Shown: in pieces, positions 1 to 27,594 of the stretch
How positions within the stretch are numbered: position 1 is the stretch's first letter
Layout: the number at the start of each line of letters is the position of its first letter
Assembly (NCBI RefSeq): GCF_900090215.1
Contig: NZ_LT594522.1
Coordinates: 266,472-298,471 of the forward strand
Origin: a secondary endosymbiont of Trabutina mannipara
GTDB taxonomy: Bacteria; Pseudomonadota; Gammaproteobacteria; Enterobacterales; Enterobacteriaceae
Direction: 5' to 3'
DNA length: 32,000 nucleotides
Translations under genes and position numbers: made by a program
Notes under the pieces: model-generated
What the model saw: only the letters and a program-made list of their open reading frames with translations
Database searches by the model: none
What the model was told of the DNA's origin: nothing

Positions 1-809
1 ATAAAGAACTAGTGCATAATGTGGCGCTACGTGTAGAAGAAACAGATGATCCTGATACCTTCTGTGTTTCTGGACGCGGAGAGCTACATCTTTCAGTTCT
101 TATTGAAAATATGCGTAGAGAGGGATTTGAAATCGCCGTTTCTCGTCCCAAAGTAATTTTTCGTACCGTAGATGGCGTTAAGCAGGAACCATTTGAATCG
201 TTAATTTTAGACATAGAAGAGCAGCATCAAGGTCAGGTTATGGACTCTATAGGTGTCCGTAAAGGGGTAATATGTGATATGTTGCCTGATAGGAAAGGAC
301 GTGTTCGTTTAAATTATGTAATTCCAAGTAGGGGGCTGCTGGGGTTTCGCACTGATTTTCTAACCATGACTTCTGGTACTGGTTTATTGCACTCTACTTT
401 CAGTCACTACGATAATGTCCTTACAGGAAAAATAGGTCAACGTAAGTATGGAGTGTTGATTTCTAACGGTCAAGGTAAAACAGTAGCTTACGCCTTATAT
501 GGTCTTCAGGATCGCGGTCGTCTTTTTTTAGGTCACGGTGTTGAAGTTTATAAAGGACAGATTATCGGTATTCATAACCGCTCTAATGATTTGACGGTAA
601 ACTGCTTAATGGGTAAAAAACTAACTAATCTACGTGCTTCAGGTACAGATGAAGCTACTAATCTTATACCTCTTATTAAGATGTCTTTGGAGCAAGCAAT
701 AGAATTTGTTGATGATGATGAATTGGTTGAAGTAACTCCGCAATCTATACGCTTGCGTAAGCGTTATCTTACAGAAAATGAACGTAAGCGTGCACATAGA
801 TCAAATTGA
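1..809 (+). CDS. typA: Translational GTPase BipA/TypA, C-terminal part (5' end lies left of the window)
   Basis: The frame of ORF 12..809 stays open back to position 3 ([16 protein letters not shown]...). [31 protein letters not shown] and [19 protein letters not shown] are colinear with the C-terminal ~265 aa of enterobacterial BipA. The 'M' at 12 is an internal GTG (Val). Confidence 0.93.
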
Positions 810-3329: not shown

Positions 3330-3686
3330 TTATTTATTTACTTTTTTACGAGTACCTTTACAGGTACGAGCATTAGTCTTAGTACGCTGACCATGAACAG
3401 GAAGATTACGACGGTGACGTAAACCACGATAAGTATTAAGATCTATAAGTCGCTTGATATTAATAGTTAATTCACGGCGAAGATCTCCTTCTACAACAAA
3501 TTTAGCAACTGCGTCACGCAACTTTTCCAGTTGCTCTTCAGACAAATCATTAATCTTTATATTTTCAGCAATACCTGTAGCAGCACAAATATGTTTTGAA
3601 CAAGATTTTCCAATACCGAAAATTGAAGTTAATGCAATAACAGTATGCTTATTATCAGGAATGTTAATGCCTGCTATACGTACCAT
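3330..3686 (-). CDS. rpsM: 30S ribosomal protein S13
   Basis: The ORF runs 3330..3692, but E. coli S13 begins [10 protein letters not shown]. The third codon, M in [14 protein letters not shown] at 3686, is therefore the likelier start. Confidence 0.95.
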
Positions 3687-3724
3687 GTGCACTCCTAAGT
3701 TAATATATTTCTTCTTTTTAATTG

Positions 3725-3841
3725 CTATCCTTGACGTTGCTTATGTTTAGGAGCAACACTGCAAATAACGCAAACAACACCGTTACGTTTAATTATTTTA
3801 CAGTTATGACATATTTTTTTGACGGAAGCGCGAACTTTCAT
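3725..3841 (-). CDS. rpmJ: 50S ribosomal protein L36
   Basis: Not in the ORF track because it is too short. Hand translation of the - strand from ATG 3841 gives [38 protein letters not shown] followed by TAG. This is 38 aa, nearly identical to E. coli L36, and sits in the expected position between secY and rpsM. Confidence 0.93.
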
Positions 3842-3872: not shown

Positions 3873-5198
3873 TTATCGATTATAACTTTTTAAAGTTTCT
3901 TTTAAAAATGCATACTCGTACTGAGTAGACATAGTTTGTACTTGGGTCATAAAATCCATGATAACAACAACTACGATCAATAAAGACGTGCCACCGAAAT
4001 AAAATGGAACCTTCATTGCGTTACGCATAAATTCAGGTATTAAGCATATAAAAGTAATATACATAGCACCTACTAGTGTTAGACGATTCATTACCTGATC
4101 TATATATTTTGCTGTTTGTTCTCCAGGACGAATACCAGGTACAAATACTCCTAATTTCTTAAGATTATCTGCTGTTTCTCGAGAATTTAAAACTATTGTT
4201 GTATAAAAATAACATAAAAATATAATTGCCGATGCATATAGTAAGGCATAAAGTGGTTGACCAGGTTGTAAATAAAGAGAGATATTAGTTAGCCATCCAC
4301 AATAGGGACTACCTCCAAACCAGGATACAATAGTAGCTGGAAATAAAATAATACTTGAAGCAAAAATTGCTGGAAGAACTCCAGCCATATTTACTTTTAA
4401 TGGCAAGTGTGTATTTTGATTTAAATAAACACAACGTCCTTGCTGCTGATGCTTTGCGTAATTAACAATAATACGACGCTGACCATGTTCAATGAATATA
4501 ACAAAAAAAGTTACAGCAAAAACTAAAAATGCAACTAAAAGTAAACATAAAAATGGAAAATATCCTTTTATAGTTTGCTTAATAGTATAGCTAATAGCAG
4601 TAGGTAAACCGGCTATAATACCTGTAAATATAATAAGAGATATACCATTACCAATACCACGATCAGTAATTTGTTCACCAAGCCACATAAGGAATATTGT
4701 TCCACAAACTAGACTTAGTATAGCAGTTAAGTAAAAAGAAATTCCTGGAATAATTACTAAAGATTGCATTTCAGGCATATTTGGTAAACCTATTGTAAAA
4801 CTAATTGCTTGAAATATAGCTAATACTAACGCACCATAACGGGCGTATTGGTTTATTTTTTGTATTCCAAATTCACCTTCTTTTTTAATTTCTGAAAGAG
4901 TAGGGTGAATTACAGTTAACAATTGAATAATAATAGACGATGAAATATATGGCATAATTCCTAAAGCAAAAACAGAAGCACGATTAAGTGCACCACCAGA
5001 GAACATGTTAAACATGTCAATAATAGTACTGCGCTGTTGTTCAATTAATTTTGTAAATACAGTACTATTTATTCCAGGTATGGGAATAAAAGAGCCAATA
5101 CGAAAAACAATAAGTGAACCAATAACAAATAAAAATCTACTTTTTAGTTCCTTTATTCCTCTTTTAACATTCCATTCTATTTTTTTATCTTTATCCAT
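3873..5198 (-). CDS. secY: Preprotein translocase subunit SecY
   Basis: 441 aa and multi-[22 protein letters not shown]...[18 protein letters not shown]...[26 protein letters not shown]...[15 protein letters not shown] is colinear with E. coli SecY. Confidence 0.98.
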
Positions 5199-8554: not shown

Positions 8555-8863
8555 TTACTTAATAAGTTTACCATTAGATTTGAATATTCTAAATTTATTA
8601 CTATTTTCAATCTTAAATCCGACACGGTCTGCTTTATTAGTAGCTAAATTAAAAATTGCAATATTAGAAAGATCAATTTTAGATTCTTTTTTTAAAATTC
8701 CACCTGAATTATTAGGCATTAGTTTTTTATGTTTTTTAACTAAATTTATACCATTAATAATGCATTTCCCATTAGGGAGGATAGTTTTAATTTTACCTCT
8801 TTTACCTTTATCTTTTCCAGTTATTACGATTACTTCATCATCAATACATATCTTAGCTGCCAT
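8555..8863 (-). CDS. rplX: 50S ribosomal protein L24
   Basis: 102 aa. [25 protein letters not shown] is the KOW motif of L24, in spc operon position. Confidence 0.95.
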
Positions 8864-9589: not shown

Positions 9590-9640
9590 TTAAGTTAATA
9601 ATGTTTTCACACGCGCAATTTTTATGCAAAAGTTGTATAC
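9590..9640 (-). pseudogene. rpmC: Remnant of 50S ribosomal protein L29 gene (3'-terminal ~16 codons only)
   Basis: Only 91 bp separate rplP and rpsQ, whereas an intact rpmC needs about 190 bp. Translating the - strand from 9640 to 9590 gives VYNFCIKIARVKTLLT followed by a stop. This matches the C-terminal ...RRDVARVKTLLNEK of E. coli L29. An in-frame TAA lies immediately upstream (9643..9641) and there is no start codon. Confidence 0.8.
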
Positions 9641-9666
9641 TTATTTTTTTATTTTGTTTATAATTA

Positions 9667-10095
9667 TTAATTGAAAACTTCAGTAGTTTCCATATGTTTT
9701 TTTATAAATATAGTTTTTATTGGTAATTTTGCTGATGCTAAATTGAATGCTTCATGGGCTAATTCTTCTGTAATACCATCTATTTCATACAAAATCTTAC
9801 CAGGCTGAATTAAAGCAACCCAGTATTCTACATTACCTTTACCTTTACCCATACGTACTTCTAGAGGTTTTTTAGTAATTGGTTTGTCTGGAAAAATACG
9901 AATCCATATCCTACCTTGATGCTTAATTTCATGTGTTATAGCACGACGCGCTGCTTCAATTTGACAAGAAGTTAAATAACCACGTCCAATAGCTTTTAAA
10001 CCAAAACTACCGAATTTAATATCCATACTTACTGCTAGTCCCCGATTGTGACCTTTATGCATTTTACGGAATTTTGTACGTTTTGGTTGTAACAT
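9667..10095 (-). CDS. rplP: 50S ribosomal protein L16
   Basis: The ORF starts [16 protein letters not shown] and E. coli L16 starts [11 protein letters not shown], so the second Met (10095) is the likelier start. There is a 7-aa C-terminal extension (ETTEVFN) beyond the conserved terminal ...KKHM. Confidence 0.96.
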
Positions 10096-10140: not shown

Positions 10141-10806
10141 TTAATTATTTGTTTTTTTGTGTTCAATAGTATTCATATTACCTAAAATTTCACCTTTAAA
10201 AATCCATACTTTTAATCCTATAACACCATAGATGGTATACGCTTCAGAAGTACTATAATCAATATCTGCTCGCAAAGTATGTAGGGGAACACAACCTTCT
10301 CGATACCATTCAGTACGTGCTATTTCAGATCCTCCTAAACGCCCACTAACTTCAATTTTAATTCCTTTAGCTCCAATACGCATTGCATTCTGTACAGCAC
10401 GTTTCATTACTCTGCGAAACAGAATACGACGTTCTAATTGTGAAGATATACTTTCAGCAACTAATTTAGCATCCATTTCAGGTTTACGTATTTCATTAAT
10501 ATTAATTTGTGCTGGTAATTTAGCGATATGAGATATAATTTTACGTAGTTTTTCAATATCTTCGCCTTTTTTTCCTATTACTAGACCTGGTCTAGCCGTA
10601 TGAATTGTTACCATAATACTATTTGCTGGACGATCTATTACTATACGAGAAATAAAAGAATTCGATAATTCATTAATTAGAAATTTACGAATTTTAAAAT
10701 CGTTATCTAGATTATTAGCAAATTCTTTAGTATTTGCATACCAAGTAGAGTTCCATAATTTAACAATTCCCAGACGAATACCATTTGGGTTGACTTTATG
10801 ACCCAT
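10141..10806 (-). CDS. rpsC: 30S ribosomal protein S3
   Basis: 221 aa. [16 protein letters not shown]...[30 protein letters not shown] matches S3. The basic C-terminal tail is shorter than in E. coli. Confidence 0.97.
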
Positions 10807-11462: not shown

Positions 11463-12287
11463 CTAATTTATTATTCGACGACATACTATAAATTTATCAG
11501 TACGTTTATTACTACGAGTTTTTTTACCTTTTGTCTGAAGACCCCATGGAGATACAGGATGCTTACCAAAATTACGTCCTTCACCACCACCGTGCGGATG
11601 GTCAACAGGATTCATTGCTGTACCCCGAACAGTAGAACGTATACCTCTCCATCGTTTAGCACCAGCTTTACCTAAAATACATAACATATGTTCTGCATTA
11701 TCTACTTCACCTAAAGTTGCACGACATTCAGAATTAATTTTACGTATTTCCCCAGAACGTAACCGTAAAGTAACATAAGCACTATCGCGAGATACTATTT
11801 GAATATAAGAACCAGCAGAACGTGCTAATTGACCACCTTTACCTGGTTTCATTTCTACATTATGTATTATGGAACCAATAGGTATTTTTCGCATAGGAAG
11901 AGCATTTCCTATTTTAATTGCTACATCGACACCAGATTCAATTTGGTCACCAACTTTTAGTCCTTTGGGTGCAATTATATAACGTCGTTCACCATCTTTA
12001 TACATTACTAATGTAATATTAGCTGATCTATTAGGATCATATTCAAAACGTTCTATTATTGCTGGAATATCATCTTTATTACGTTTAAAATCTATTATGC
12101 GATATTTTTTTTTGTGCCCACCACCAATATGTCGCATAGTAATACGACCATTATTATTCCGTCCACCTGATTTATTAAGAGGTTTTAGTAATTTATTATA
12201 CGGTTTACCTTTATGAATATTAGAATTTATTATTTTAACAACGTGGCGACGACCTGGAGATGTGGGTTTACACTTAACAATTGACAT
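11463..12287 (-). CDS. rplB: 50S ribosomal protein L2
   Basis: 274 aa. [12 protein letters not shown]...[18 protein letters not shown] matches L2. Confidence 0.98.
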
Positions 12288-12333
12288 TGTTATTATTCCT
12301 CATAATTACAAACACTCTGTTTTTTTATAAAAA

Positions 12334-12620
12334 TTATATATTTTGACCCTTTTTAAAGATAATATAAGCTTTTTTATAGTTACGTTGTTTATGATGCTTA
12401 TTTTTTTCTTTAAATATAAGAGTATGTATTTTATTAATTTTATTTTTTATAATTTTATTAATTTTATTTTTTATATATAGCAGTTTTAATTTCTGCTTTA
12501 TTTGCATCTTTTTTTACTTTAAAAACAATAGTGTTGTATTTTTTTTGAGGTAGATGCTTTTTCAGAAATATGTTGTGATTTAAGTATATCTTAAAATAAA
12601 TTTTTTTTTCTAAAAATCAT
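12334..12620 (-). pseudogene. rplW: 50S ribosomal protein L23 gene, disrupted (in-frame stop plus two frameshifts in poly(A) tracts plus a 24-bp tandem duplication)
   Basis: The 329-bp gap between rplD and rplB has no long ORF. The ATG at 12620 overlaps the rplD TGA (ATGA), as expected for rplW. Hand translation finds L23 homology in three successive frames. The first frame reads MIFRKKNLF-stop-DILKSQHISEKASTSKK. After an A8 tract (12539-12546) the next frame reads YNTIVFKVKKDANKAEIKTAIYKK-stop. After an A6 tract (12467-12472) the third frame reads NKINKIIKNKINKIHTLIFKEKNKHHKQRNYKKAYIIFKKGQNI-stop (stop at 12334). Compare E. coli ...HVSEKAST...[20 protein letters not shown]...NTLVVKGKVKRHGQR...WKKAYVTLKEGQNL. 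Confidence 0.85.
12427..12474 (-). repeat. 24-bp tandem duplication (2 copies, 23/24 identical) inside the rplW remnant
   Basis: + strand copies are TATTTTATTAATTTTATTTTTTAT (12427-12450) and AATTTTATTAATTTTATTTTTTAT (12451-12474). On the - strand the unit is ATAAAAAATAAAATTAATAAAAT(T/A), which encodes IKNKINKI twice in the third L23 frame. Confidence 0.95.
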
Positions 12621-13222
12621 ACCAACATATCCTCAAATTGCTTAATAGCATTAACTGTTATAATAACTTTATCAAAAACAATTAAACTAATAGGGTTAAC
12701 GCTTTTCGTATCGCTAACCTCTACTTTGTAGAGATTACGTGCAGCTAGAAATAAATTCTCATTTAATTTATCTGTAATAATTAAAACATCATCTAATAAT
12801 AAATTTTGTAATTTCTGTACTAAAAATTTTGTTTTGGGTGCTTTTATATAAAAATATTCAACAATAATTAAACGATTTTGACGAATTAATTCTGAAAAAA
12901 TACTTTTTAAAGCTCCACGATACATTTTTTTATTTACTTTTTTACTATAATCTTGCTGCTTAGCTGCAAAAGTTATACCACCAGATCTCCATATAGGACT
13001 TTTAACACTACCAGAACGTGCCCTACCTGTACCTTTCTGACGCCAAGGTTTTTTATTGGAACCAATTACTTCACCACGATTTTTTTGACAACTAGTTCCT
13101 TGACGAGATCCTGCAAAATAAGCTATAATAATTTGATGAATTAATGCTTTATTAAAATTAAATCCAAATATTTTTTCTGAAACATTTAGTATATCCTGTG
13201 TATCTTTTAGTACTAATTCCAT
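12617..13222 (-). CDS. rplD: 50S ribosomal protein L4
   Basis: 201 aa. [32 protein letters not shown] matches L4. Confidence 0.97.
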
Positions 13223-14328: not shown

Positions 14329-15513
14329 TTATTCAATAATTTTAGCTACAACACCAGCACCAATAGTATGACCACCTTCACGAATAGCAAAACGTAAACC
14401 ATTATCCATAGCAATTGGAGATATTAAATTAACAACCATCTTTATATTATCCCCAGGCATAACCATTTCAATACCTTCTGGTAATTCTATAGTACCAGTT
14501 ACATCAGTAGTACGAAAATAAAATTGTGGACGATATCCTTTGAAAAAAGGTGTATGACGTCCTCCTTCATCTTTATTTAAAATATAAACTTCTGAATCAA
14601 ATTTAGTATATGGTTTAATTGATCCTATTTTTGCTAACACTTGACCACGTTCAACTTCATCACGCTTTGTGCCACGAAGTAATATACCAACATTATCTCC
14701 AGCACGTCCTTCGTCTAATAATTTACGAAACATTTCAACGCCAGTACAAATAGTTCTTACAGTATTTTTAATACCTACAATTTCTATTTCATCACCTACT
14801 TTAATTATACCTCTTTCTATACGACCAGTTACTACTGTACCACGTCCTGAAATAGAAAATACATCTTCAATGGGTAATAAAAATGGTTGATCAATAATTC
14901 TTTTAGGTTCTGGAATATATTTATCTAGTGCTTCTGCAAGTTCAATAATTTTTTTAGTCCATATTTCATTACCTTCTAATGCTTTTAATGCAGAACCCCT
15001 AATAATAGGTGTCTTTTCTCCAGGAAAATCATATTGAGATAATAATTCACGTACTTCCATTTCTACAAGTTCTAATAGCTCTTCATCATCAACTATATCA
15101 CATTTATTCATAAATACTACAATATATGGTACACCTACTTGACGACCTAAAAGTATATGTTCCCGAGTTTGGGGCATAGGACCATCAGTAGCTGCAACTA
15201 CCAAAATGGCACCATCCATTTGAGCGGCACCAGTAATCATATTTTTTACATAATCAGCATGTCCTGGACAATCTACATGTGCATAATGACGATTTAAAGT
15301 ATCGTATTCAACATGTGAAGCATTAATAGTAATACCACGAGCTTTTTCTTCTGGTGCATTATCTATTTGTTCACAAGCACGTGCGTTACCACCATAAGCT
15401 TTAGCTAGAACAGTAGTAATAGCAGCCGTTAAAGTAGTTTTTCCATGATCAACATGTCCAATAGTACCTACATTTATATGAGGTTTTGTACGTTGAAATT
15501 TTTCTTTAGACAT
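14329..15513 (-). CDS. tuf: Elongation factor Tu
   Basis: The ORF extends to 15534, but EF-Tu begins [28 protein letters not shown] at the Met at 15513, giving 394 aa. It is near-identical to E. coli EF-Tu throughout. Confidence 0.98.
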
Positions 15514-15613
15514 AAAGATTAATCCTCTTTGCAAATAATATTATATTTCATACTGCCATATTAATATATTCAAAGCAACTATAAGTTTTAGAAAAGATAT
15601 TAGCAATCATAAT

Positions 15614-15686
15614 TGCTGACAGGCAGATTTGAACTGCCGACCTCACCCTTACCAAGAGTGTGCTCTTCCTGCTGAGCTATGTCAGC
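15614..15686 (-). tRNA. thrT: tRNA-Thr (anticodon GGU); 3' CCA not encoded
   Basis: The - strand reads GCTGACATAGCTCAGCAGGAAGAGCACACTCTTGGTAAGGGTGAGGTCGGCAGTTCAAATCTGCCTGTCAGCA. It folds as a cloverleaf with a 7-bp acceptor stem, anticodon loop CTTGGTAAG region and T-loop TTCAAAT. The discriminator A is followed by ATT. Confidence 0.93.
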
Positions 15687-15695
15687 AGCGTATAT

Positions 15696-15770
15696 TGGAG
15701 CGAACAGTGAGAATTGAACCCACATCTTCAGCTTGGAAGGCTGAGGTAATAACCATTATACGATGTTCGC
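15696..15770 (-). tRNA. glyT: tRNA-Gly (anticodon UCC); CCA encoded
   Basis: The - strand reads GCGAACATCGTATAATGGTTATTACCTCAGCCTTCCAAGCTGAAGATGTGGGTTCAATTCTCACTGTTCGCTCCA. It is closely similar to E. coli glyT. Confidence 0.93.
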
Positions 15771-15783
15771 AAAATAATGAATA

Positions 15784-15865
<82 letters not shown>

Positions 15866-15879
15866 TCAAAATTTTTGAA

Positions 15880-15952
15880 TGCCGGCAGAAGGAATCGGAC
15901 CTTCAACCTACTGATTACAAATCAGTTACTCTACCAATTGAGCTATACCGGC
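15880..15952 (-). tRNA. thrU: tRNA-Thr (anticodon UGU); CCA not encoded
   Basis: The - strand reads GCCGGTATAGCTCAATTGGTAGAGTAACTGATTTGTAATCAGTAGGTTGAAGGTCCGATTCCTTCTGCCGGCA followed by TTC. The cloverleaf folds. The T-loop reads TCCGATT. Confidence 0.9.
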
Positions 15953-16055
15953 TATTTACTTTCTATTTTTTAGATTTATATAAAATAATACAATATTTTA
16001 TATTTTTGTCTAATATTTATTAGAATTTTTATTCAATAAAAATTTAATTTTATAA

Positions 16056-19000
16056 TTAATCATTTTTTTTATTTAGAAGTTCTGCTAAATTAGCAGAAGC
16101 TTTATCTGCAGTAATTGTTGGTACTTTAGATAATATATTTTTGGGAATAGCACTATTTTTATGAAAATTATAACCAGTTCCTGCTGGAATTAACCTTCCA
16201 ACTATAACATTTTCTTTTAAACCACGTAATTCATCGTATTTTCCAGCTACAGCAGCTTCTGTTAGTACACGTGTAGTTTCTTGGAAAGATGCTGCTGATA
16301 TAAAAGAATTTGTAGCAAGAGAAGCTTTAGTAATACCTAACAAATTTCGAATATAACTTATTTTTTCTTTACCATTTTTTTCTAAATTTCTATTAGCTAT
16401 TTTAATACGAGAATATTCTACTTGTTCACCTTCTAAAAATTCTGAATTATTACTCTTAGTAATTGTTACTTTACGTAACATTTGACGAATAATAACTTCT
16501 ATATGTTTATCATTAATTTTTACTCCCTGTAATCGATAAACCTCCTGAACTTCATTAACAATATAACGAGTTACTTCATGCACACCACGTAATCGTAGAA
16601 TATCATGCGGAGATTCGGGACCGTCAGAAATAACATCTCCTTGCTCTACACGTTCACCTTCAAATACATTAAGATGACGACATTTGGGAATCATTTCTTC
16701 ATAAGAATTATTATTTTCTATAGATGAAATCAGAAGTCTTCTTTTTCCTTTAGTTTCTTTACCAAAAGTAACTATACCACTAATTTCAGCTAAAATAGCT
16801 GGTTCTTTAGGACAACGAGCTTCAAATAAATCTGCTACACGTGGGAGACCCCCAGTAATATCTTTAATACCACTAGTTTCTTGTGGCAAACGTGCTAATG
16901 TATCACCACAAGTAATTTTAGCACCATCTACAAGATGTACAATTGCTTTTCCTGGTAAAAAGTACTGTGCTGGTATTTCAGTACCAGGTAAAAATACATC
17001 ATTACCATTAATATCAACTATTTGTAATGTAGGACGTAAATCTTTACCACTAATAGTGCGTTCTGAAGTATCTAATACTACTAGAGAAAATAAACCAGTA
17101 AGTTCATCTGTTTGACGAGTAATAGTTTGACCATCAATCATATCAATAAAATGAACAAAACCATTAACTTCAGCAATAATAGGCATAGTATGCGGATCCC
17201 AATTAGCAACTATTTCACCACTTTTAACTTCTGATAAATTTACTTTATCCATTACAGCTCCATAAGGAACTTTATATATTTCTTTAGTTCTACCAAATTT
17301 ATCAATTAATTTTAGTTCAGTATTACGTGAAGTAATAACTAACTTACCATTGCAATTAAATACAAATTTAGCATTTATTAAACTAATTATTCCTTTATTC
17401 TTTACTTGAATGCTAGATTCTGCAGCAGCACGTGAAGCAGCTCCACCAATATGAAATGTACGCATAGTAAGTTGTGTACCTGGTTCACCTATAGACTGTG
17501 CTGCTATAACACCAATAGCTTCTCCTTCATTTACTAAATTACCTCTAGCTAAATCACGACCATAACAATTTGCACAAACTCCAAAATCAGTATCACAAGT
17601 TACTACTGAACGTACTTTAATACTATCAACTAAAAATTTTTCTAAAATATCACAACATTGTTCATTTAATAATGAATTTCGTTCTATTAAAATATCTGAT
17701 GTACCTGGTTTTAGAATATTTTCCACTGTAACACGTCCTAAAACTTTCTCACGAAGAGGTTCTTTAATTTCCCCTCCTTCAATAACAGGAGTCATTAATA
17801 TACCTGAAAAGGTACCACAATCTTTTTCAGTTATTATTAAATCTTGTGCTACATCAACTAAACGACGAGTTAAATATCCAGAATTTGCAGTTTTTAGTGC
17901 AGTATCAGCTAATCCTTTACGAGCACCGTGTGTAGAAATAAAATATTGGAGTACATTTAAACCTTCACGAAAATTTGCAGTAATAGGTGTTTCAATAATG
18001 GAACCATCAGGTTTTGCCATTAAACCACGCATACCTGCTAATTGACGAATTTGTGCTGCTGAACCACGAGCTCCAGAATCAGCCATCATAAAAATACTAT
18101 TAAAAGATACTTGATTTTCTTCTATACCATCATTATTAATTACAGTATCAGTAGATAAATTATCCATCATAGCTTTAGCAATACGTTCATTAGCTGCAGC
18201 CCATATATCTATAACTTTGTTATAACGTTCACCAGCAGTAACTAGACCTGACTGAAATTGTTCTTGTATTTCAGCTACTTCTGCTTCAGCTTCATCAATA
18301 ATTTCTATCTTTTTTTCTGGTATTACCATATCATCTATACCTACTGATGATCCTGAACGAGCAGCATAATAAAATCCTGTATACATAATTTGATCTGCAA
18401 AAATTACAGTTGATTTTAAACCTAATAAGCGATAGCAAGTATTCAGCATTTTAGATATGGATTTTTTACCTAATACCTGATTTACTAATGAGAAAGGTAA
18501 TCCATTAGGAACAATAAGCCATAAAATGGCTCTACCTATAGTAGTATTTATTATACTAGTATTTTCTATCCATTCACTATTATTATTTTTTGTATATTCA
18601 GTAATACGTACTTTAACTCTAGCATGTAATTCTACTATACCCAGTAGATATATTTTTTCAGCTTCTTTAGGTCCAGTTAACACCATACCTTCGCCTTTAG
18701 CATTTATACGATCACGAGTCATATAATATAAACCTAGAACCACATCCTGTGATGGTACAATAATAGGTTCTCCATTTGCAGGAGATAATATATTTTTTGT
18801 AGACATCATTAATGTACGTGCTTCCATTTGTGCTTCTGATGTTAATGGAACATGTACTGCCATTTGATCTCCATCAAAATCAGCATTATATGCTGCACAT
18901 ACTAGAGGATGTAATTGAATAGCTTTTCCTTCAATAAGGACTGGTTCAAATGCTTGGATTCCTAAACGATGTAGTGTTGGTGCTCTATTTAACATAACTG

Positions 19001-20258
19001 GATGTTCATGAATAACTTCATCTAGTATATCCCATACTATAGTTTCTTCACGTTCAACCATTTTTTTTGCAGCTTTAATTGTTGTTGCAAAACCACGAAT
19101 TTCTAGTTTTCCATAAATAAAAGGTTTAAATAGTTCTAATGCCATTTTTTTGGGTAATCCACATTGATGAAGATGTAGATATGGACCAACAGTAATAACT
19201 GAACGTCCAGAATAATCAACACGTTTACCTAATAAGTTTTGTCTAAAACGTCCTTGTTTACCTTTAATCATATCTGACATTGATTTAAGAGAACGTTTAT
19301 TAGAACCAGTAATAGCACGTCCACGACGACCATTATCTATTAGTGCGTCAACTGCCTCTTGTAACATACGTTTTTCATTACGTACAATGATATCTGGTGC
19401 AGCTAGATCTAATAAACGTTTAAGACGATTATTACGATTAATTACACGACGATACAGATCATTTAAATCTGATGTTGCAAATCTACCTCCTTCTAGAGGT
19501 ACTAAAGGACGTAAATCTGGTGGTAGTACTGGTAGTACTGTTAATATCATCCATTCTGGTTTATTTCCTGATTCTAGAAAAGATTCTAATATTTTAATTC
19601 TTTTAGTTATTTTTTTGCGTTTTGTTTCAAAATTAGTATGTTCTAGTTCTTCTCTTAAATTTTCGCATTCATATTTTAAATCCAAATTTTTTAATATATC
19701 ATATATTGATTCAGCACCCATTTTCGCTTTAAATTCATCACCAAATTCTTCCAAAGCATTTAAATATTGATCTTCAGTTAAAATTTGGCGGCATTCAAGA
19801 TTAGTCATACCACTTTCAACTACAATATAAGATTCAAAATATAATACACTTTCTATGTCACGTAATGACATATCTAATAATAACCCAATACGGGAAGGTA
19901 ATGATTTTAAAAACCAAATATGTGCAGTAGGTGAAGCTAATTCAATATGACCCATACGTTCACGACGAACTTTAGTTTGTGTAACTTCTACTCCACATTT
20001 TTCACAAATTACACCTCGATGTTTTAATCTTTTATATTTACCACATAAACATTCATAATCTTTTATAGGTCCAAAAATACGTGCACAAAATAAACCATCT
20101 CTCTCTGGTTTAAAGGTACGGTAATTAATAGTTTCTGCTTTTTTTACTTCACCAAAAGACCAAGAACGAATCATTTCTGGTGAGGCTAGTGTAATTTTTA
20201 TTGCATCAAATTCTTCATTTTTATTTTGTTTTTTTAAAAAATTAAATAAATCTTTCAC
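16056..20258 (-). CDS. rpoC: DNA-directed RNA polymerase beta' subunit
   Basis: 1400 aa, colinear with E. coli RpoC. It contains the zinc motif [20 protein letters not shown] and the catalytic [12 protein letters not shown]. Confidence 0.99.
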
Positions 20259-20348
20259 AGATTGATTCCTACCGAAGTTAAATAACTTTAAATTATTCTT
20301 GAACTTGAAACTATCAATCTATCTTGTATACTAAGTACCAGTATATGA

Positions 20349-23300
20349 TTACTTATTTTTTTCCAATTCAATATTTATCCCTAAAGATCTAATCTCTTTT
20401 AATAAAACATTAAAAGATTCAGGCATACTGGGTTCCATCATATAATTACCATCAATGATATTTTTATACATTTTAGTTCTACCATTAACATCATCTGATT
20501 TAATAGTTAGCATTTCTTGTAATGAATAAGCAGCACCATATGCTTCTAAAGCCCATACTTCCATTTCTCCAAAACGCTGGCCACCAAATTGTGCTTTTCC
20601 TCCTAAAGGTTGTTGAGTAACTAAACTATAAGATCCCGTAGAACGGGCATGCATTTTGTCATCTACTAAATGATTAAGTTTTAACATATACATATATCCA
20701 ACAGTAACCTGTCGTTCGAATTTTTCTCCTGTTCTTCCGTCAAATAAAGTTATTTGACCAGAACTAGGTAAACCACTCAGTTTTAATAATTCTTTAATTT
20801 CTTTTTCTTTAGCACCGTCAAAAACTGGTGTAGCAATTGGCATTCCTTTTTTTAAGTTGTTTGCTAAACAAAGTATTTCTTCATCAGAAAATGAATCAAT
20901 GTTTATTTTCTGGCGTAAATTATCACCTACATTATAAGCTTTCTGAATGAATTTACGTAATTTTTTAATATTATTATGCTGATTTAGCATATAATTGATT
21001 TTATCACCAATACCTTTTGCTGCCATACCTAAATGAGTTTCTAAAATTTGACCTATATTCATCCTAGAAGGAACACCTAAAGGATTTAGAACTATATCTA
21101 CAGGTACACCATTTTCATCATAAGGCATATCTTCAATTGGATTAATTTTAGAAATTACACCTTTATTACCATGACGTCCTGCCATTTTATCACCAGGTTG
21201 AATTTGCAGTTTTACTGCTAGATATACTTTAACTACTTTAAGTATACCTGGTGCTAAATTATCATATTGAATTATTTTATTTTTCTTTGCTTCTAATTTC
21301 TTTTGAAATTCATACTTAAGTTCTTGATATTGTTCTATAAGTTGATCAAATTGATTTTTAATATCTTTATTTATAATATCTATTTCTAACCAATTTTTAC
21401 GTGTTAATTTATCTAATTTTGAGGATTCTATTCCACTAAGAATAAGAAGATTACGAATACGTGAAAATAATCCATTTTCAAAAATATGTAATTCTTCAGT
21501 AAGGTCTTTTTTAATCTGTTGAAGTTGTATTTCTTCTATTTCTAACGCACGCTTATCTTTTTTAACGCCATCTCGAGTAAAAATTTGAACATCAATAACA
21601 ACACCTGAAGTACCATTTGGTACCCGTAATGATGAATCTTTTACGTCAGAAGCTTTTTCACCAAAAATAGCTCTTAATAATTTTTCTTCTGGTGTTAATT
21701 GACTTTCACCTTTTGGTGTGACTTTACCTACTAAAATATCACCATCACTAACTTCAGCACCAATATATACAATACCTGATTCATCTAATTTTGAAAGTGC
21801 AGATTCTCCTACATTTGGAATATCAGCAGTAATTTCTTCAGAACCTAATTTTGTATCACGAGATATACAAGTCATTTCCTGAATATGTACAGTAGTAAAA
21901 CGATCTTCCTGTACAACTTTTTCAGATATTAACATAGAATCTTCAAAATTATAACCATTCCAAGGCATAAAGGCAATACGCATATTTTGACCAAGAGCTA
22001 ACTCACCTAAATCTGTAGATGGTCCATCAGCTATTACATCTCCACGATTAATTAGTTCACCTAAAGAAACACAAGGTTTTTGATTAATACAAGTATTTTG
22101 ATTAGAACGAATATATTTTTTTAGATTATAAATATCAATACCAGCTTCTCCAGAAAAAGTTTCATCAGAATTAACATTAATAACAATACGAGATGCATCT
22201 ACGTATTGTACTTTTCCACTACGTTTTGCTACAATAGTAACACCTGAATCAACTGCAACAATACGTTCCATACCAGTACCAACTAATGGTTTATCAGTAA
22301 TCAAATTAGGTATTGCTTGACGTTGCATATTGGCACCCATTAATGCCCTATTAGCATCATTATGTTCTAAAAATGGAATAAGAGAAGCACCAACTGATAC
22401 TATTTGTTGAGTAGAAACATCCATATAATTAATTTGTTTACTGTTAAATAAACTTGATTCGCCTTTATTGCGACAAGTTATAAACTCATCTACAAAATGA
22501 CCATCTTTACTAAGATTAGTATTTGCTTGTGCTATAACAAAATAGCCTTCTTCAATTGCTGAAAGATAATGTATTTCATCAGTAACAACACCATTCTGTA
22601 CAAGACGATAGGGAGTTTCAAGAAATCCATATTCATTAGTTTGTGCATATACAGATAATGAGTTTATAAGACCAATATTGGGTCCTTCTGGAGTTTCTAT
22701 AGAACATATACGACCATAATGAGTTGGATGTACATCACGAACTTCAAAACTTGCACGTTCACGAGTTAAACCACCAGGTCCTAATGCAGAAATACGTCTT
22801 TTATGTGTAATTTCTGAAAGAGGATTATTTTGATCCATAAATTGTGATAATTGACTAGAACTAAAAAATTCTTTTATTGCGGCTGAAATTGGTTTAGCAT
22901 TAATCATATCTTGCGGCATTAAATTATCCATATCTCCTAAAGATAGACGTTCTTTTACTGCACGTTCTACACGTAATAATCCAATACGAAACTGATTTTC
23001 TGCCATTTCACCTACTGCACGAATTCTTCTATTACCTAAATGATCAATATCGTCAATTTCACCTTTACCATTTCGAATATCAATAAGTTTTTTAATAACA
23101 TCAACAATATCTTTTTTTTCTAAAATACCAGGACCTTCACTTTCTTTACGTAAAAGTGAACGATTAAATTTCATCCTACCTACTGCTGATAAATCATAAC
23201 GTTCTTCTGAAAAAAATAAATTTTTAAATAAATTTTCAGCGGCTTCATTAGTGGGTAATTCACCAGGACGCATCATACGATATATTTCTAAAAGTGCATT

Positions 23301-24383
23301 TAAACGATCATTAGTAGGATCAATAAGTAAAGTTTCAGAAATATAAGCACCATTATCTAAATTATTTATAAATAATGTTTCAATAATTTTATGTCCTGCT
23401 TTAATTAATTTGTTGATTATATCAATTGTTAATGCTTTGTTAGCATAAATAATATTTTCTCCAGTTTTTTCATCAAAATAATCTTTTGCTACTATTTTTC
23501 CTATAATATATTCTATAGGAACATTAATCTGTTCAATATTATCTTTTTTTAAATGATCAATATGACGTGATGTTACTCTACGACCTTTTTCCACATAAAG
23601 AATACCTTTCTCTTTTATATCAAATAAAGCAGTTTCACCACGTAAAAATTCAGGAATTAAGTTCATTATCAAATTTTGATTATTAATCTCATAAATTACT
23701 TTTTTGAAAAAAATATCTAAAATTTGATTAGTACTATAATTAAGGGCTCTTAAAAGAAGAGTAACAGGTAATTTACGACGACGATCAATACGAAAAAATA
23801 AATTATCTTTTAAATCAAATTCAAAATCTAACCATGAACCACGGTAAGGAATAATGCGAGCATTATATAATATTTTTCCAGAAGAATGTATTTTACCTTT
23901 ATCACTATCAAAAAAAACTCCTGGACTACGGTGTAATTGAGAAACAACGACACGTTCTGTACCATTAATTATAAAAGTACCGTTATCTGTCATGAGTGGT
24001 ATTTCACCCATATATACTTCTTGTTCTTTTATATTCTTTACTGTAATTTCTGATATTTCGCGTTCATAAATAATAAGACGCAATTTTACACGTAAAGGTG
24101 ACGAAAAAGTTATCCCCCTCATTTGGCATTCTTTTATATCAAAAATAGGATCTCCTAAACGATAAGTAACATACTGTAATTCAGATTTACCATTATAGCT
24201 TTTTATAGGAAATATAGAACGAAAAACTGCTTCTAAACCATATTGACCTTCTATATCTTGTTCTATAAATTTTTGAAATGAATCAAGCTGAATAGAAAGA
24301 AGATAAGGAATATCTAAAATTTGCGGACGTTTTCCGAAATCTTTACGAATACGTTTTTTTTCAGTATGAGAGTAAAAAAACAT
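20349..24383 (-). CDS. rpoB: DNA-directed RNA polymerase beta subunit
   Basis: The ORF opens at 24395 ([25 protein letters not shown]). E. coli RpoB starts [16 protein letters not shown], so the Met at 24383 is the likelier start, giving 1344 aa. It is colinear with RpoB. Confidence 0.98.
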
Positions 24384-24464
24384 AGAGCTCCTCAATTAGT
24401 TAACATAAATATTAACAGAAACAGAAAATGGATATAGTTTAGTATGTGTTTTTAACATCTATAT

Positions 24465-24502
24465 TTAACTAATTAATTAACTAATTAAATTAACCTAATT
24501 AA
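24465..24502. repeat. Three tandem copies of a 12-13 bp unit TTAAC(C)TAATTAA in the rplL-rpoB spacer
   Basis: TTAACTAATTAA occurs at 24465-24476 and 24477-24488. TTAACCTAATTAA occurs at 24490-24502. Confidence 0.88.
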
Positions 24503-24532
24503 ATTTTATTATAATGTAGAAATTTTTCTAAT

Positions 24533-24561
24533 TTATTATTAAATAAATTATTTAATAATAA
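24533..24561 (-). other. 29-nt perfect A/T-only palindrome 5 nt downstream of the rplL stop
   Basis: TTATTATTAAATAA-A-TTATTTAATAATAA has 14-nt arms and is centred on 24547. It sits where E. coli has the rplL-rpoB attenuator region. No U tract follows it on the - strand. Confidence 0.4.
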
Positions 24562-24565
24562 TAAA

Positions 24566-24946
24566 TTAGTTAATGCTAATAGTAGCACCTACCTTTTCCA
24601 GTAAATTTTTTAAATTTTCAGCATCATTTTTATTTAATCCTGTTTTTATAATAGCAGGTGCAGATTCAACTAAATCTTTTGATTCTTTTAATCCTAACCC
24701 AGTAGCTCCACGAACAGCTTTAATAACAGCAATTTTATTGGTACCAATTTCATTTAAAAAAACTTTAAATTCAGTTTGTTCTTCTATTGTTTTTTCAATA
24801 GGTACTTCTTTTGTAATTGCTACATCTATAGCAGTTTGATTAGCAGAAATACTAAATTTTTTTTCCATCATAGATATTAATTCAACTACATCTAGGACAG
24901 ACATTTTAGCAATTGTGTCAATAATTTGTTCTTTAGTTATAAACAT
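24566..24946 (-). CDS. rplL: 50S ribosomal protein L7/L12
   Basis: 126 aa. [31 protein letters not shown]...[27 protein letters not shown] matches L7/L12. Confidence 0.97.
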
Positions 24947-24983
24947 TTTAATTTTTTTCCTAATTTAAAAATTAATTTAAAAA

Positions 24984-25487
24984 TTAAATATTATATTTTT
25001 CTTTTTTATTACATACTGCAATTAATGTACGAAATAATTTCGTTATAGATATATTTTTTATAGTTGATACTAAAAAAATGACTGATTCTTTATAATTTGG
25101 CATATTTACTAAACTCTCAATTTGAGAATCTTGAATAAGATTTCCTTCTAAAACTGCCATTTTAATTTTTAAATTAGTATTTTTTTTAGAAAAAGAGGTA
25201 AGTAAACGAGCTGATGTATTAACATTTTCTTTAGAAAATGCAATAATATTAGGACCAATAAATTTATCTTTTAAACATTCCAAAGAAGTACCTTTAACTG
25301 CACGTTGCATTAATCTATTACGAACAATATATAGTTGAATATTAGATTCACGACTTAATTTACGTAGTTCAGTCATTTGGTTTGCTGTAATACCACTAAA
25401 ATCCATAATAAAAGCAGATATAGCATTCATTGATATTTGTTTAAATTTATTAATAATATTTTTTTTATTTTTAAAATTTAAAACCAT
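24984..25487 (-). CDS. rplJ: 50S ribosomal protein L10
   Basis: 167 aa, more diverged. MTELRKLSRESNIQLYIVRNRLMQRAVKGTSLECLKDKFIGPNIIAFS aligns with E. coli L10 ([48 protein letters not shown]). Confidence 0.93.
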   Translation of the reverse strand: MVLNFKNKKNIINKFKQISMNAISAFIMDFSGITANQMTELRKLSRESNIQLYIVRNRLMQRAVKGTSLECLKDKFIGPNIIAFSKENVNTSARLLTSFSKKNTNLKIKMAVLEGNLIQDSQIESLVNMPNYKESVIFLVSTIKNISITKLFRTLIAVCNKKEKYNI

Positions 25488-25557
25488 AAACTTTATCCCT
25501 TAAGTTATTAACTTTACCTAATACCTAAAATAGGAATTTTTTTTCAAAATTTAAATT

Positions 25558-26262
25558 TTAAATAACAAATCTAGATAAACAATTTTTATTAATTACTATA
25601 CCTGCTCCCATCGTAGTAGATATGCTAATTTTTTTTATATAAATACCTTTTGTAGGTATTGGTTTATCTTTTTTTAATGCAAGAAGTAATGTTTCTAAAT
25701 TTTCTTCTAATTTATTAGAATCAAAATTTATTTTACCTATAGTAGTATGAATTATACCTTTTTTATCAGTACGATATTGTATTTGACCATATTTTGCATT
25801 TTTAACTGCTTCACTAATATTAGAAGTAACAGTACCAAGTTTAGGATTAGGCATTAAATTACGTGGTCCTAAAAATTTTCCTAACTTACTTACAATATGC
25901 ATTAAATCAGGAGAAGCAATAACTATATCAAAATCAAATTTACCTATTTTAATATTATCAACTAAATTGTTAATACCTATTATATCTGCACCAGCAGTTT
26001 TAGCTATTTGAGCATTAATTCCTTGAGCAAATACCGCTACACGAACATTACGACCATTTCCATGCGGAAATACTACAGTACCACAAATATTGTGATTTGA
26101 TTTATGTGTATCGATATTAAGCTGAATAGCAATATCGACACTTTCATTAAAATTAACTAGTGTAAATTTTTTTAATAAAAATAAAGCTGAATTTATATCA
26201 TATTGCTTACTAAAATTAATTTGATCTCGTATAATACGCATACGTTTGGTAAGCTTAGTCAT
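25558..26262 (-). CDS. rplA: 50S ribosomal protein L1
   Basis: 234 aa. [15 protein letters not shown]...VRVAVFAQG...[16 protein letters not shown]...[19 protein letters not shown] matches L1. Confidence 0.96.
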
Positions 26263-26265
26263 ATT

Positions 26266-26694
26266 TTAACTCTCTATTTCTATACCTATAGAATAGGCTG
26301 TCCCAATAATAGAACGGACCATTGCTGATATATCAGAACCTGTCATATCAGGTGCTTTTATTTTAGCTATTTCAATAATTTGTGCATTAGTTATTTTACC
26401 TACTTTATTTTTATTTGGTTTACTAGATCCAGATTTGATACTTACAGTTTTCTTTAATAAAATAGCTGTAGGAGTACTTTTAGTAATAAAAGTAAAAGAA
26501 CGATCAGAATATACAGTAATAACAACTGGAATAGGTAAACCTTTTTCAAGAGAATCTGTTTTAGTATTAAATAATTTACAAAATTCAATTATATTAATAC
26601 CATGTTGACCTAAAGATGGTCCTACTGGAGGACTCGGATTTGCCATACCTGCAGCAATTTGCAGTTTTACATAGGATTTTATTTTTTTAACCAT
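26266..26694 (-). CDS. rplK: 50S ribosomal protein L11
   Basis: 142 aa. [34 protein letters not shown]...[11 protein letters not shown] matches L11. Confidence 0.97.
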
Positions 26695-26783
26695 ATAAAT
26701 CTCATTTAAAATGAAAAAATTTCAATTTTATTGTTTAATAATGTCAGATAAGATGTAAAACTTAAAAAAATAAATAAAAAATT

Positions 26784-27349: not shown

Positions 27350-27361
27350 TTTATTAAAACC

Positions 27362-27574: not shown

Positions 27575-27594
27575 AAGAATAGATTCTATAATCT

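What the first reader, a model, noticed from the sequence alone, without database searches (positions are those of the whole stretch)
12334..12620. rplW (ribosomal protein L23) survives only as a multiply disrupted frame, with both frameshifts in poly(A) tracts
- **Seen in sequence:** the rplD-rplB gap (329 bp) has the size and position of rplW, and its ATG overlaps the rplD stop (ATGA).
- No intact ORF exists. Recognisable L23 sequence is spread over three reading frames (HISEKAST, then NTIVFKVKKDANKAEIK, then HTLIFKEK...YKKAYIIFKKGQN).
- There is an in-frame TAA at codon 10.
- One frame change falls in an A8 run (12539-12546) and another in an A6 run (12467-12472). Each would be corrected by minus one A or plus two A. 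A 24-bp tandem duplication is also present.
- The longest ATG-initiated frame is 57 aa (12507..12334) and covers only the C-terminal half.
- **Established knowledge:** L23 is essential in E. coli. Transcriptional slippage on long poly(A) tracts has been reported to rescue frameshifted genes in Buchnera and Blochmannia.
- **Inference:** the amino-acid similarity is still high for a fast-evolving AT-rich symbiont. The gene was therefore either inactivated very recently or is still expressed through polymerase slippage or ribosomal frameshifting. Homopolymer sequencing error is the trivial alternative for the two frameshifts, but it does not explain the TAA.
Basis: partly seen in the sequence, partly recalled or inferred. 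Interest (0 to 1): 0.72.

Follow-up and report, generated by a model that had tools for sequence, protein, structure and literature searches.

The report
Dead L23 gene in nested symbiont
In the tiny genome of "Candidatus Trabutinella endobia", a bacterium living inside another bacterium in a mealybug, the gene for the normally indispensable ribosomal protein L23 is a recently broken, decaying pseudogene and the neighbouring L29 gene is almost erased, so this is ordinary genome decay, not a cleverly rescued gene, but it raises the question of how this cell's ribosomes cope.

Summary
Between rplD and rplB (329 bp, minus strand), recognisable L23 sequence is spread over three frames. The stitched product passes Pfam Ribosomal_L23 (43.5 bits, cutoff 30.8); no single ORF does.

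The window is from "Ca. Trabutinella endobia" (298 kb, Illumina, 1216x), the symbiont living inside Tremblaya in the mealybug Trabutina mannipara. Its sister Mikella and 16 other reduced relatives keep rplW intact.

Compared with Mikella, the remnant has at least six lesions:
- TAA at codon 10
- a net -2 bp change that created the A8 run
- a perfect 24-bp duplication within a net +1 shift
- a 15-bp deletion
- Trp to Tyr in the invariant WKKAY motif
- a shortened 3' end

It also shows relaxed codon-position constraint and intergenic-like GC (16.7%). The 37 intact genes carry 139 A/T runs of 6 or more bases with no frameshift, so sequencing error is unlikely.

Rescue by slippage is not supported. 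It would need two -1/+2 events on short runs plus TAA readthrough, and the sister gene is intact.

New here: rpmC (L29), L23's partner at the exit tunnel, is only a fragment in the 91-bp rplP-rpsQ spacer.

Verdict: a genuine, fairly recent pseudogene. Moderate interest.

The parts
12334..12620 (-). rplW (uL23) pseudogene as a whole, from the ATG that overlaps the rplD stop to the terminal TAA
   Evidence: The three-frame translation matches L23. The stitched product hits Pfam PF00276 at 43.5 bits against a cutoff of 30.8. It sits in the syntenic slot between rplD and rplB, where Mikella has an intact 102-aa rplW.
12591..12593 (-). Premature TAA at codon 10 (Mikella has AAA, Lys)
   Evidence: TAA terminates 31 of the 37 intact CDSs in the window.
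12539..12546 (-). A8 run at the first frame change (net -2 bp relative to four relatives)
   Evidence: Mikella reads TCAATAAAAAAATAT and Trabutinella reads TCAAAAAAAATAC.
12428..12475 (-). Perfect 24-bp tandem duplication (2.0 copies) holding two A6 runs; the second frame change (net +1) lies in or next to it
   Evidence: TRF reports 100% matches.
12379..12390 (-). Junction of a 15-bp in-frame deletion (five codons of the K-R-H-x-x-x-G-x-R loop preceding WKKAY)
12376..12378 (-). TAT (Tyr) in place of the Trp that all 17 relatives have in the WKKAY motif
   Evidence: (every relative has W, or TGA read as Trp in Stammera).
12285..12301 (-). rplB Shine-Dalgarno sequence (GAGGA) and start codon, retained downstream of the remnant
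   Evidence: No terminator-like site lies in 12100-12800, so the remnant should be co-transcribed with the S10 operon (inference).
9590..9619 (-). rpmC (uL29) 3' remnant, IARVKTLLT*, just upstream of rpsQ
   Evidence: It matches the Profftia L29 C-terminus (IARVKTLLTEKA) residue for residue over these nine positions and aligns to Mikella rpmC codons ~48-56.
9667..9696 (-). rpmC 5' remnant fused in frame to the end of rplP (HMETTEVFN*; compare Mikella rpmC HKENIQTLN)
   Evidence: The rplP ORF here is 142-143 aa, against 139 in Mikella and 136 in E. coli.

Best explanation
The 329-bp stretch between rplD and rplB is a genuine, non-functional and fairly recently inactivated pseudogene of rplW (ribosomal protein uL23). 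The genome is that of "Candidatus Trabutinella endobia", the gammaproteobacterium that lives inside Tremblaya princeps in the mealybug Trabutina mannipara.

The remnant is still transcribed passively as part of the S10 operon, but it makes no L23. Translation starting at the retained ATG stops at codon 10. The rest is decaying toward AT-rich spacer by deletions, a duplication and substitutions.

It is the second step in the erosion of the ribosomal exit-tunnel platform. The adjacent-acting rpmC (uL29) was lost earlier and survives only as two short fragments.

Shown: the lesions, the relaxed constraint, the intact orthologues in the sister lineage and in other reduced relatives, and the organism's identity.

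Inferred: that no functional L23 is made from this locus; that uL29 was lost before uL23; and that the cell's ribosomes either work without uL23 and uL29 (which I favour) or receive uL23 from a partner genome.
For: - Identity: RplD is 100% identical to the protein of the 'secondary endosymbiont of Trabutina mannipara' on a 298,471-bp contig. The genome was sequenced on Illumina HiSeq at 1216x, and its authors report 27 pseudogenes.
- At least six independent lesions relative to the intact Mikella rplW: TAA at codon 10, net -2 bp, a 24-bp duplication with a net +1 shift, a 15-bp deletion, Trp to Tyr in the invariant WKKAY motif, and a truncated 3' end.
- Relaxed constraint: the stitched product is 62% identical to Mikella L23 with 22 gap columns, against 72-96% for 20 intact neighbours. 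Codon-position identity is 74/83/70%, against 79-95/90-100/73-84%.
- Composition: GC is 16.7%, like the spacers, against 28% and 35% for the flanking rplD and rplB. Homopolymer density is five times that of CDS.
- Internal control against sequencing error: 139 A/T runs of 6 or more bases (22 of them 8 or more) in 27.7 kb of intact CDS, with no frameshift.
- TAA is the normal stop codon (31 of 37 CDSs), and there is no sign of recoding.
- rplW is intact in Mikella, in three independent assemblies, and in 16 other reduced relatives with genomes down to ~220 kb.
- No L23 named for this genome turned up in protein-database searches that do contain its RplD.
- rpmC is reduced to fragments in the same operon. 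This fits the published pattern in which exit-tunnel components (TF, uL29) are lost in tiny genomes, with rare uL23 loss as well.
Against: - uL23 is not among the E. coli ribosomal proteins reported as dispensable (the lists are quoted). Its loss from a cell that still keeps SecY, SecE and L24 intact is therefore uncomfortable.
- The remnant keeps its ATG in the coupled ATGA arrangement and still shows a weak coding signature.
- I could not read the raw reads, the rest of the genome, the Tremblaya contigs or the host assembly. A second copy or a supply in trans is excluded only weakly; the protein searches rely on a word index and were insensitive.
- The order of loss, uL29 before uL23, rests only on the degree of decay.
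Confidence: 0.85

Rival explanations
1. The gene is still functional. RNA-polymerase slippage on the A8 and A6 runs (or +1 ribosomal frameshifting or sliding on Lys codons), together with readthrough of the TAA or initiation downstream of it, yields enough full-length L23.
For: - Both frame changes coincide by position with A runs, and each is formally corrected by removing one A.
- The ATGA coupling to rplD is retained.
- Residual similarity to L23 is still high.
- Rescue of poly(A) frameshifts by slippage has been proposed for Buchnera and Blochmannia (my own knowledge; discussed).
Against: - Three independent low-frequency events would be needed for each protein molecule, yet ribosomal proteins are needed in stoichiometric amounts.
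- TAA is the standard stop codon (31 of 37 CDSs), and both release factors are encoded.
- Slippage at A/T runs is mostly +1 insertion, rises exponentially with run length, and restored no reading frame in Buchnera. Here -1 or +2 is required, twice, on runs of only 8 and 6.
- Even the 'repaired' product lacks five loop residues and the invariant Trp, and it carries an 8-residue duplication.
- The sister Mikella has an ordinary intact ORF, so no conserved recoding signal exists. Galperin et al. make the same argument in general.
- Excess change at codon positions 1 and 2 indicates lost constraint.
Confidence: 0.04
2. The disruptions are assembly or sequencing artefacts and the real gene is intact.
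For: AT-rich homopolymers and a short tandem repeat are classic trouble spots. Galperin et al. attribute many frameshifted ribosomal-protein genes in databases to sequencing error.
Against: - The data are Illumina HiSeq at 1216x coverage, assembling to a single circular contig.
- None of the 139 A/T runs of 6 or more bases in 37 intact genes of this window causes a frameshift.
- The lesions include a base substitution to TAA, a 15-bp deletion, a 2-bp deletion and a Trp to Tyr change. None of these is a homopolymer-length error.
- GC drift and relaxed codon-position constraint are spread along the whole remnant.
- rpmC in the same operon is independently degraded.
Confidence: 0.04
3. The locus is a redundant pseudogene, because an intact rplW exists elsewhere: in the Trabutinella chromosome, in the Tremblaya genome with the protein reaching Trabutinella, or in the host nucleus.
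For: - Tremblaya princeps retains most ribosomal proteins (49 of 56 in strain PCIT; 'most ribosomal proteins').
- Translation functions are already partitioned between the two bacteria.
- Trabutinella has no cell-envelope genes and an amorphous cell shape.
- Host-to-inner-symbiont protein import is known in the related Planococcus citri system (my own knowledge).
Against: - No L23 attributed to the Trabutina symbionts appeared among hits to either the stitched L23 or the Mikella L23, although RplD of this genome is in that database. This is a weak test.
- The genome paper reports no ribosomal-protein gene among the bacterial genes in the host genome.
- The known direction of protein dependence is from the inner to the outer symbiont, and immunolocalisation in P. 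citri showed little bulk protein exchange.
- Whether Tremblaya from T. mannipara encodes rplW could not be checked here.
Confidence: 0.15

Closest known systems
Ribosomal-protein gene loss in bacteria with tiny genomes (Nikolaeva et al. 2021, PMC7782861; Galperin et al. 2021, bioRxiv 10.1101/2021.01.31.429008), in particular the 'exit-tunnel block' pattern (trigger factor plus uL29)
   Same: - A reduced endosymbiont genome is losing large-subunit proteins that surround the polypeptide exit.
- uL29 is on the published 'frequently lost' list.
- uL23 is not among the nine never-lost proteins, and its loss was seen in at least one small genome.
   Different: - uL23 is not a frequently lost protein, and it is not in the lists of E. 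coli-dispensable ribosomal proteins quoted.
- Here the loss is caught in progress, as a still-recognisable pseudogene beside an older uL29 remnant.
- The genome is 298 kb, and its 353-kb sister is cited as the smallest genome with a complete ribosomal-protein set.
- None of the texts I could read discusses this locus.
Frameshifted genes in poly(A) tracts rescued by transcriptional slippage in Buchnera and Blochmannia (Tamas et al. 2008; Wernegreen et al. 2010; from my own knowledge)
   Same: An AT-rich insect endosymbiont with frame changes located at A runs in an otherwise recognisable gene.
   Different: - The runs are short (A8 and A6).
- The required correction is -1 or +2, not the prevailing +1.
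- There are further disabling lesions: TAA, a 15-bp deletion, a duplication and loss of the invariant Trp.
- The frameshifts are not conserved in the sister lineage.
- Genome-wide measurement in Buchnera found no restored reading frames.
Partitioning of translation machinery between Tremblaya princeps and its intrabacterial gammaproteobacterium (Moranella, Mikella, Trabutinella)
   Same: It is the same biological system. Gene loss in one partner is tolerated because the consortium as a whole keeps the function.
   Different: - Published complementation runs from the inner symbiont to Tremblaya (aminoacyl-tRNA synthetases, release factors, RRF, peptide deformylase).
- Moranella and Mikella keep full ribosomal-protein sets.
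- Here the inner symbiont itself has lost a core ribosomal protein. If that loss is compensated, it would require supply in the opposite direction.

Membership tests
Ribosomal protein uL23 gene (rplW; Pfam PF00276) | Sequence matches the family profile above the curated threshold | tested here: met
   The stitched three-frame product scores 43.5 bits against a cutoff of 30.8, E=4.5e-11, covering profile positions 1-84 of 86. No single-frame piece passes (20.0 and 22.5 bits).
Ribosomal protein uL23 gene (rplW; Pfam PF00276) | Syntenic position between rplD and rplB in the S10 operon | tested here: met
   Mikella and 16 other relatives have rplW immediately after rplD.
Ribosomal protein uL23 gene (rplW; Pfam PF00276) | Uninterrupted ORF of about 95-105 codons | tested here: not met
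   There is a TAA at codon 10 and two frame changes. The longest ATG ORF is 57 aa.
Ribosomal protein uL23 gene (rplW; Pfam PF00276) | Invariant Trp of the C-terminal WKKAY motif, and a full-length loop preceding it | tested here: not met
   All 17 relatives have Trp at this position (TGA in Stammera). Trabutinella has Tyr and lacks five loop codons.
Decaying pseudogene of a reduced endosymbiont genome | Several independent disabling lesions relative to an intact orthologue in the sister lineage | tested here: met
   At least six lesions relative to Mikella rplW. Mikella's gene is intact in three assemblies.
Decaying pseudogene of a reduced endosymbiont genome | Relaxed purifying selection and drift toward non-coding base composition | tested here: met
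   Codon positions 1 and 2 are 74% and 83% identical to Mikella, below all 18 intact neighbours. GC is 16.7%, like the spacers.
Poly(A)-frameshifted gene rescued by transcriptional slippage | A frameshift in a long A/T run is the only defect of an otherwise intact ORF | tested here: not met
   The gene also carries a TAA nonsense codon, a 15-bp deletion, a 24-bp duplication and a Trp to Tyr change. The runs are only 8 and 6 nt long.
Poly(A)-frameshifted gene rescued by transcriptional slippage | The frameshift is maintained across related lineages | tested here: not met
   Mikella and all the other relatives have in-frame genes.
Poly(A)-frameshifted gene rescued by transcriptional slippage | Heterogeneous transcripts that include frame-restoring lengths | not testable with these tools
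   This needs cDNA or RNA-seq from T. mannipara bacteriomes. Published Buchnera data show mostly +1 insertions and no restored frames.
Programmed ribosomal frameshift (prfB or dnaX type) | A conserved slippery site with a stimulatory element, conserved among relatives | tested here: not met
   The relatives have no frameshift at either site. No Rfam element lies in the region. Stimulatory structures were not searched for specifically.

The most novel reading that the evidence does not exclude
Trabutinella no longer encodes uL23 or uL29, yet it must still translate about 237 proteins and all the aminoacyl-tRNA synthetases for the consortium. The most novel reading the evidence allows is that its ribosomes are completed with uL23 encoded by another genome (Tremblaya princeps or the insect nucleus). 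That would mean chimeric ribosomes and protein flow from the outer to the inner bacterium, an organelle-like step in a bacterium-within-bacterium symbiosis. A slightly less novel reading is a natural bacterial ribosome that works with no uL23 at all.
Probability: 0.15. Interest if true: 0.85.

Novelty: new member of a known kind. Interest (0 to 1): 0.4.

Why it matters
uL23 is a universal ribosomal protein. It forms, with uL29, the docking site for trigger factor, SRP and the Sec translocon, and it is not on the published lists of ribosomal proteins that E. coli can lose.

Here its gene is caught mid-decay next to an already erased uL29. The organism is the inner partner of the only known bacterium-in-bacterium symbiosis, and its sister lineage still has the full ribosomal-protein set. 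This gives three things:
- a dated, stepwise example of the exit-tunnel platform being dismantled;
- a clean negative example for the idea that poly(A) slippage rescues such genes;
- a concrete marker protein for testing whether ribosomal components are exchanged between Tremblaya, its inner symbiont and the host, a question the mealybug literature explicitly leaves open.

On its own, the finding is a case of the known process of pseudogenisation in a published genome that reports 27 pseudogenes.

Tried and rejected
- Exact look-ups of the window's RplD, RplB and P0001 in the gene-position index found nothing. I could therefore not fetch the rest of the genome or any independent assembly.
The organism was identified through the protein search instead.
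- The search with the stitched L23 was insensitive: 23 candidates, and not even Mikella's L23 was returned. I repeated it with the Mikella L23. Both negatives for a second copy are weak.
- Supplementary tables of Szabo et al. and Nikolaeva et al. are not held. The journal version of Galperin et al. and the McCutcheon & von Dohlen 2011 paper could not be opened. As a result I could not establish which genomes lack uL23, whether LT594522 annotates rplW as a pseudogene, or whether Tremblaya encodes rplW.
- Alternative genetic code: rejected. TAA ends 31 of 37 CDSs, and there are 51 TGG codons and no in-frame TGA.
- The 57-aa ORF as a functional mini-L23: rejected. It scores 20 bits, below the cutoff, covers only the C-terminal half, begins out of frame inside the middle fragment, and has no evident Shine-Dalgarno sequence.
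- A -1 slip in the upstream A9 run (12609-12601) would bypass the TAA and enter the middle frame directly. However, it replaces the conserved HISEK segment with unrelated sequence and still ends at the next stop, so I rejected it.
- Known RNA element, or a terminator or promoter inside the remnant: none found. Promoter-like hits were at the level expected by chance.
- A tuf remnant in the 336-bp fusA-secE spacer: none found.

Full report
**What is there**

The window carries the S10, spc and alpha ribosomal-protein operons on the minus strand. Upstream of them lie rpsL-rpsG-fusA, secE-nusG-rplKAJL-rpoBC, four tRNAs and tuf.

rplD ends at 12617 and rplB starts at 12287, which leaves 329 bp. Translating this stretch in three frames gives:
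- [26 protein letters not shown]
- NTIVFKVKKDANKAEIKTAIYKK, after the A8 run at 12546-12539
- ...NKINKIIKNKINKIHTLIFKEKNKHHKQRNYKKAYIIFKKGQNI*, after the A6 region

Stitched together, these pieces match Pfam Ribosomal_L23 over positions 1-84 of 86, at 43.5 bits (cutoff 30.8, E=4.5e-11). No single-frame piece reaches the cutoff.

**Whose genome it is**

RplD is 100% identical to the L4 protein of the 'secondary endosymbiont of Trabutina mannipara', on a 298,471-bp contig. The next-best hit is Ca. Mikella endobia at 80%.

This organism is "Ca. Trabutinella endobia", which lives inside Tremblaya princeps in the manna mealybug. The genome paper (PMC5322300) reports:
- Illumina HiSeq 2000 data, a single circular contig and 1216-fold coverage;
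- 237 proteins and 27 pseudogenes;
- no cell-envelope genes, and no transporters apart from one mechanosensitive channel.

Neither rplW nor rpmC is mentioned in its main text.

**Comparison with relatives**

Mikella has the same gene order and an intact 102-aa rplW and 64-aa rpmC, seen in three independent assemblies. Sixteen other reduced Enterobacterales symbionts, with genomes down to ~220 kb, also have an uninterrupted rplW directly after rplD. The one apparent exception is a TGA at the Trp codon in a Stammera isolate, discussed under 'In passing'.

**The lesions**

Aligning the remnant to Mikella rplW shows:
1. AAA changed to TAA at codon 10 (12593-12591).
2. A net -2 bp change at the A8 run. 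All four relatives compared share the same HISEK-to-NTIV spacing, so the simplest event is a 2-bp deletion that created the run.
3. A perfect 24-bp tandem duplication at 12428-12475, lying within a segment that is otherwise 8 bp shorter than in Mikella. This gives a net +1 shift that cannot be pinned to one A6 run.
4. A 15-bp in-frame deletion that removes five loop codons.
5. Trp to Tyr in the WKKAY motif, which is invariant in all 17 relatives.
6. A C-terminus about eight residues shorter than Mikella's.

**Evidence that constraint is gone**

- The stitched product is 62% identical to Mikella L23 with 22 gap columns. Twenty intact neighbouring genes are 72-96% identical with few gaps.
- Identity at codon positions 1/2/3 is 74/83/70% for the remnant, against 79-95/90-100/73-84% for 18 intact neighbours. 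The remnant has therefore taken extra changes at replacement positions. It still keeps a weak coding signature, which fits a fairly recent inactivation.
- GC is 16.7%, like the intergenic spacers. The flanking rplD and rplB are 28% and 35%. A/T runs of 6 or more bases are five times denser than in CDS.

**Why it is not a sequencing artefact**

- Coverage was 1216x on a platform that reads short homopolymers well.
- The 37 intact CDSs of the window (27.7 kb) contain 139 A/T runs of 6 or more bases, including 22 of 8 or more, and none causes a frameshift.
- Most of the lesions are not homopolymer-length changes at all.

**Why rescue by slippage or frameshifting is unlikely**

- TAA is the stop codon of 31 of the 37 genes, and there is no sign of recoding. 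Both release factors are encoded.
- Both frame changes need -1 or +2. In genome-wide measurements in E. coli and Buchnera, slippage at A/T runs gave mainly +1 insertions, rose exponentially with run length, and restored no reading frame (PMC5574713).
- Three rare events would have to coincide for each molecule of a protein that is needed stoichiometrically.
- The 'repaired' product would still lack the invariant Trp and five loop residues.
- The sister genome has a plain ORF, so no conserved recoding signal exists. Galperin et al. use the same argument in general.
- No Rfam element or terminator lies in the remnant. It is presumably transcribed passively with the operon, and rplB keeps its own Shine-Dalgarno sequence.

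**An addition: rpmC (uL29) is also gone**

The rplP-rpsQ spacer is only 91 bp. It contains IARVKTLLT* (9619-9590), which matches the Profftia L29 C-terminus residue for residue over those nine positions and aligns to Mikella rpmC codons ~48-56.

The rplP frame has lost its own stop codon and runs on into former rpmC codons ~5-13 (HMETTEVFN*, 9696-9667; Mikella has HKENIQTLN). The interior of the gene is deleted.

At least 15 of the 16 relatives checked keep rpmC; L006 gave no hit to the E. coli query. rpmC is far more eroded than rplW, so uL29 was probably lost first (inference).

L24, L30, L36, SecY and SecE are intact.

**Comparison with what is known**

- uL29, uL24 and trigger factor are 'frequently lost' in genomes under 1 Mb, and loss of uL29 correlates with loss of trigger factor.
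- The nine never-lost proteins are uL5, uL14, uL15, bL20, uS5, uS8, uS11, uS13 and uS17. uL23 is not on that list. The preprint tests 'loss of uL23' for association with trigger factor, so uL23 was missing in at least one small genome. It is not frequently lost.
- The E. coli dispensability lists quoted in that paper do not include uL23.
- Mikella is cited as the smallest genome with a full ribosomal-protein set.
- In the P. citri system, Tremblaya encodes 49 of 56 ribosomal proteins and Moranella encodes all of them. Whether the two partners' ribosomal components are exchangeable was left open.

**What I could not do**

- I could not read the rest of the Trabutinella chromosome, the Tremblaya contigs or the host assembly.
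- Two protein-database searches found no L23 attributed to the Trabutina symbionts, although RplD of this genome is in that database. The word-index search was insensitive, so this is weak evidence against a second copy.
- The status of tig, ffh, ftsY, rplI and the 23S rRNA is unknown to me.

**Verdict**

This is a real, multiply disabled and fairly recent rplW pseudogene, beside an older rpmC remnant, in a published and still-eroding 298-kb intrabacterial symbiont genome.

Its 'recently inactivated' reading is supported. Its 'still expressed by slippage' reading is not.

The remaining open question is how the ribosome copes. It may do without uL23 and uL29, which I favour, or it may receive uL23 supplied by Tremblaya or the host. 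The second option would be notable, and I give it about 0.15.

**In passing**

The Stammera capleta locus L034 and the psyllid-symbiont locus L031 carry in-frame TGA at conserved Trp positions in rplW and rplP. This suggests UGA=Trp recoding in those genomes.

Noticed in passing
window 9590-9696 (rplP-rpsQ junction): rpmC (uL29) survives only as two fragments. IARVKTLLT* lies in the 91-bp spacer. Former rpmC codons ~5-13 are fused in frame to the end of rplP, which has lost its own stop codon (…[11 protein letters not shown]). Mikella, and at least 15 of the 16 relatives checked, keep rpmC intact.
   Followed up: yes
L034:4842, L034:7293, L034:7377 (Stammera capleta MIFJIFIK, CP144846.1); L031:7304 (Enterobacteriaceae PSmali, CP181165.1): There are in-frame TGA codons exactly at conserved Trp positions of rplW and rplP. 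This suggests UGA=Trp reassignment (code 4) in these very small Enterobacterales symbiont genomes. PSmali also still uses TGG at another Trp position in the same gene.
   Followed up: partly
window 14329-30013; L081:1-7323: The gene order is rpsL-rpsG-fusA | secE-nusG-rplKAJL-rpoBC | tRNA Thr-Tyr-Gly-Thr | tuf | S10 operon. The single tuf gene is thus separated from fusA by the block that normally follows tufB, as expected after a tufA/tufB recombination. The rpoB-rpoC-tuf-rpsJ part is shared with Mikella. The 336-bp, 17% GC fusA-secE spacer (27575-27910) holds no recognisable tuf remnant.
   Followed up: partly
window 3873-5198 (secY), 27362-27574 (secE), 8555-8863 (rplX): SecY (441 aa), SecE (70 aa) and L24 are intact. 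Yet the genome paper reports no envelope genes and almost no transporters, and the L23/L29 docking site for the translocon is gone. L24 is the least conserved intact ribosomal protein relative to Mikella (71.6% identity).
   Followed up: partly
window 10141-10806 (rpsC): S3 is 221 aa here, against 254 aa in Mikella, a difference of 33 alignment gap columns. I did not examine which of the two is unusual or where the difference lies.
   Followed up: no
window 3654-3759: The alpha-operon ribosome-binding-site regulatory RNA (Rfam RF00140, 45 bits against a gathering score of 38) is still recognisable upstream of rpsM in this 298-kb genome.
   Followed up: no
window 12-809 (+ strand) and 31263-31601 (-): Only the C-terminal part of TypA/BipA is visible at the left edge of the window, because the ORF runs off the end. 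A TusB/DsrH-family gene lies upstream of rpsL.
   Followed up: no
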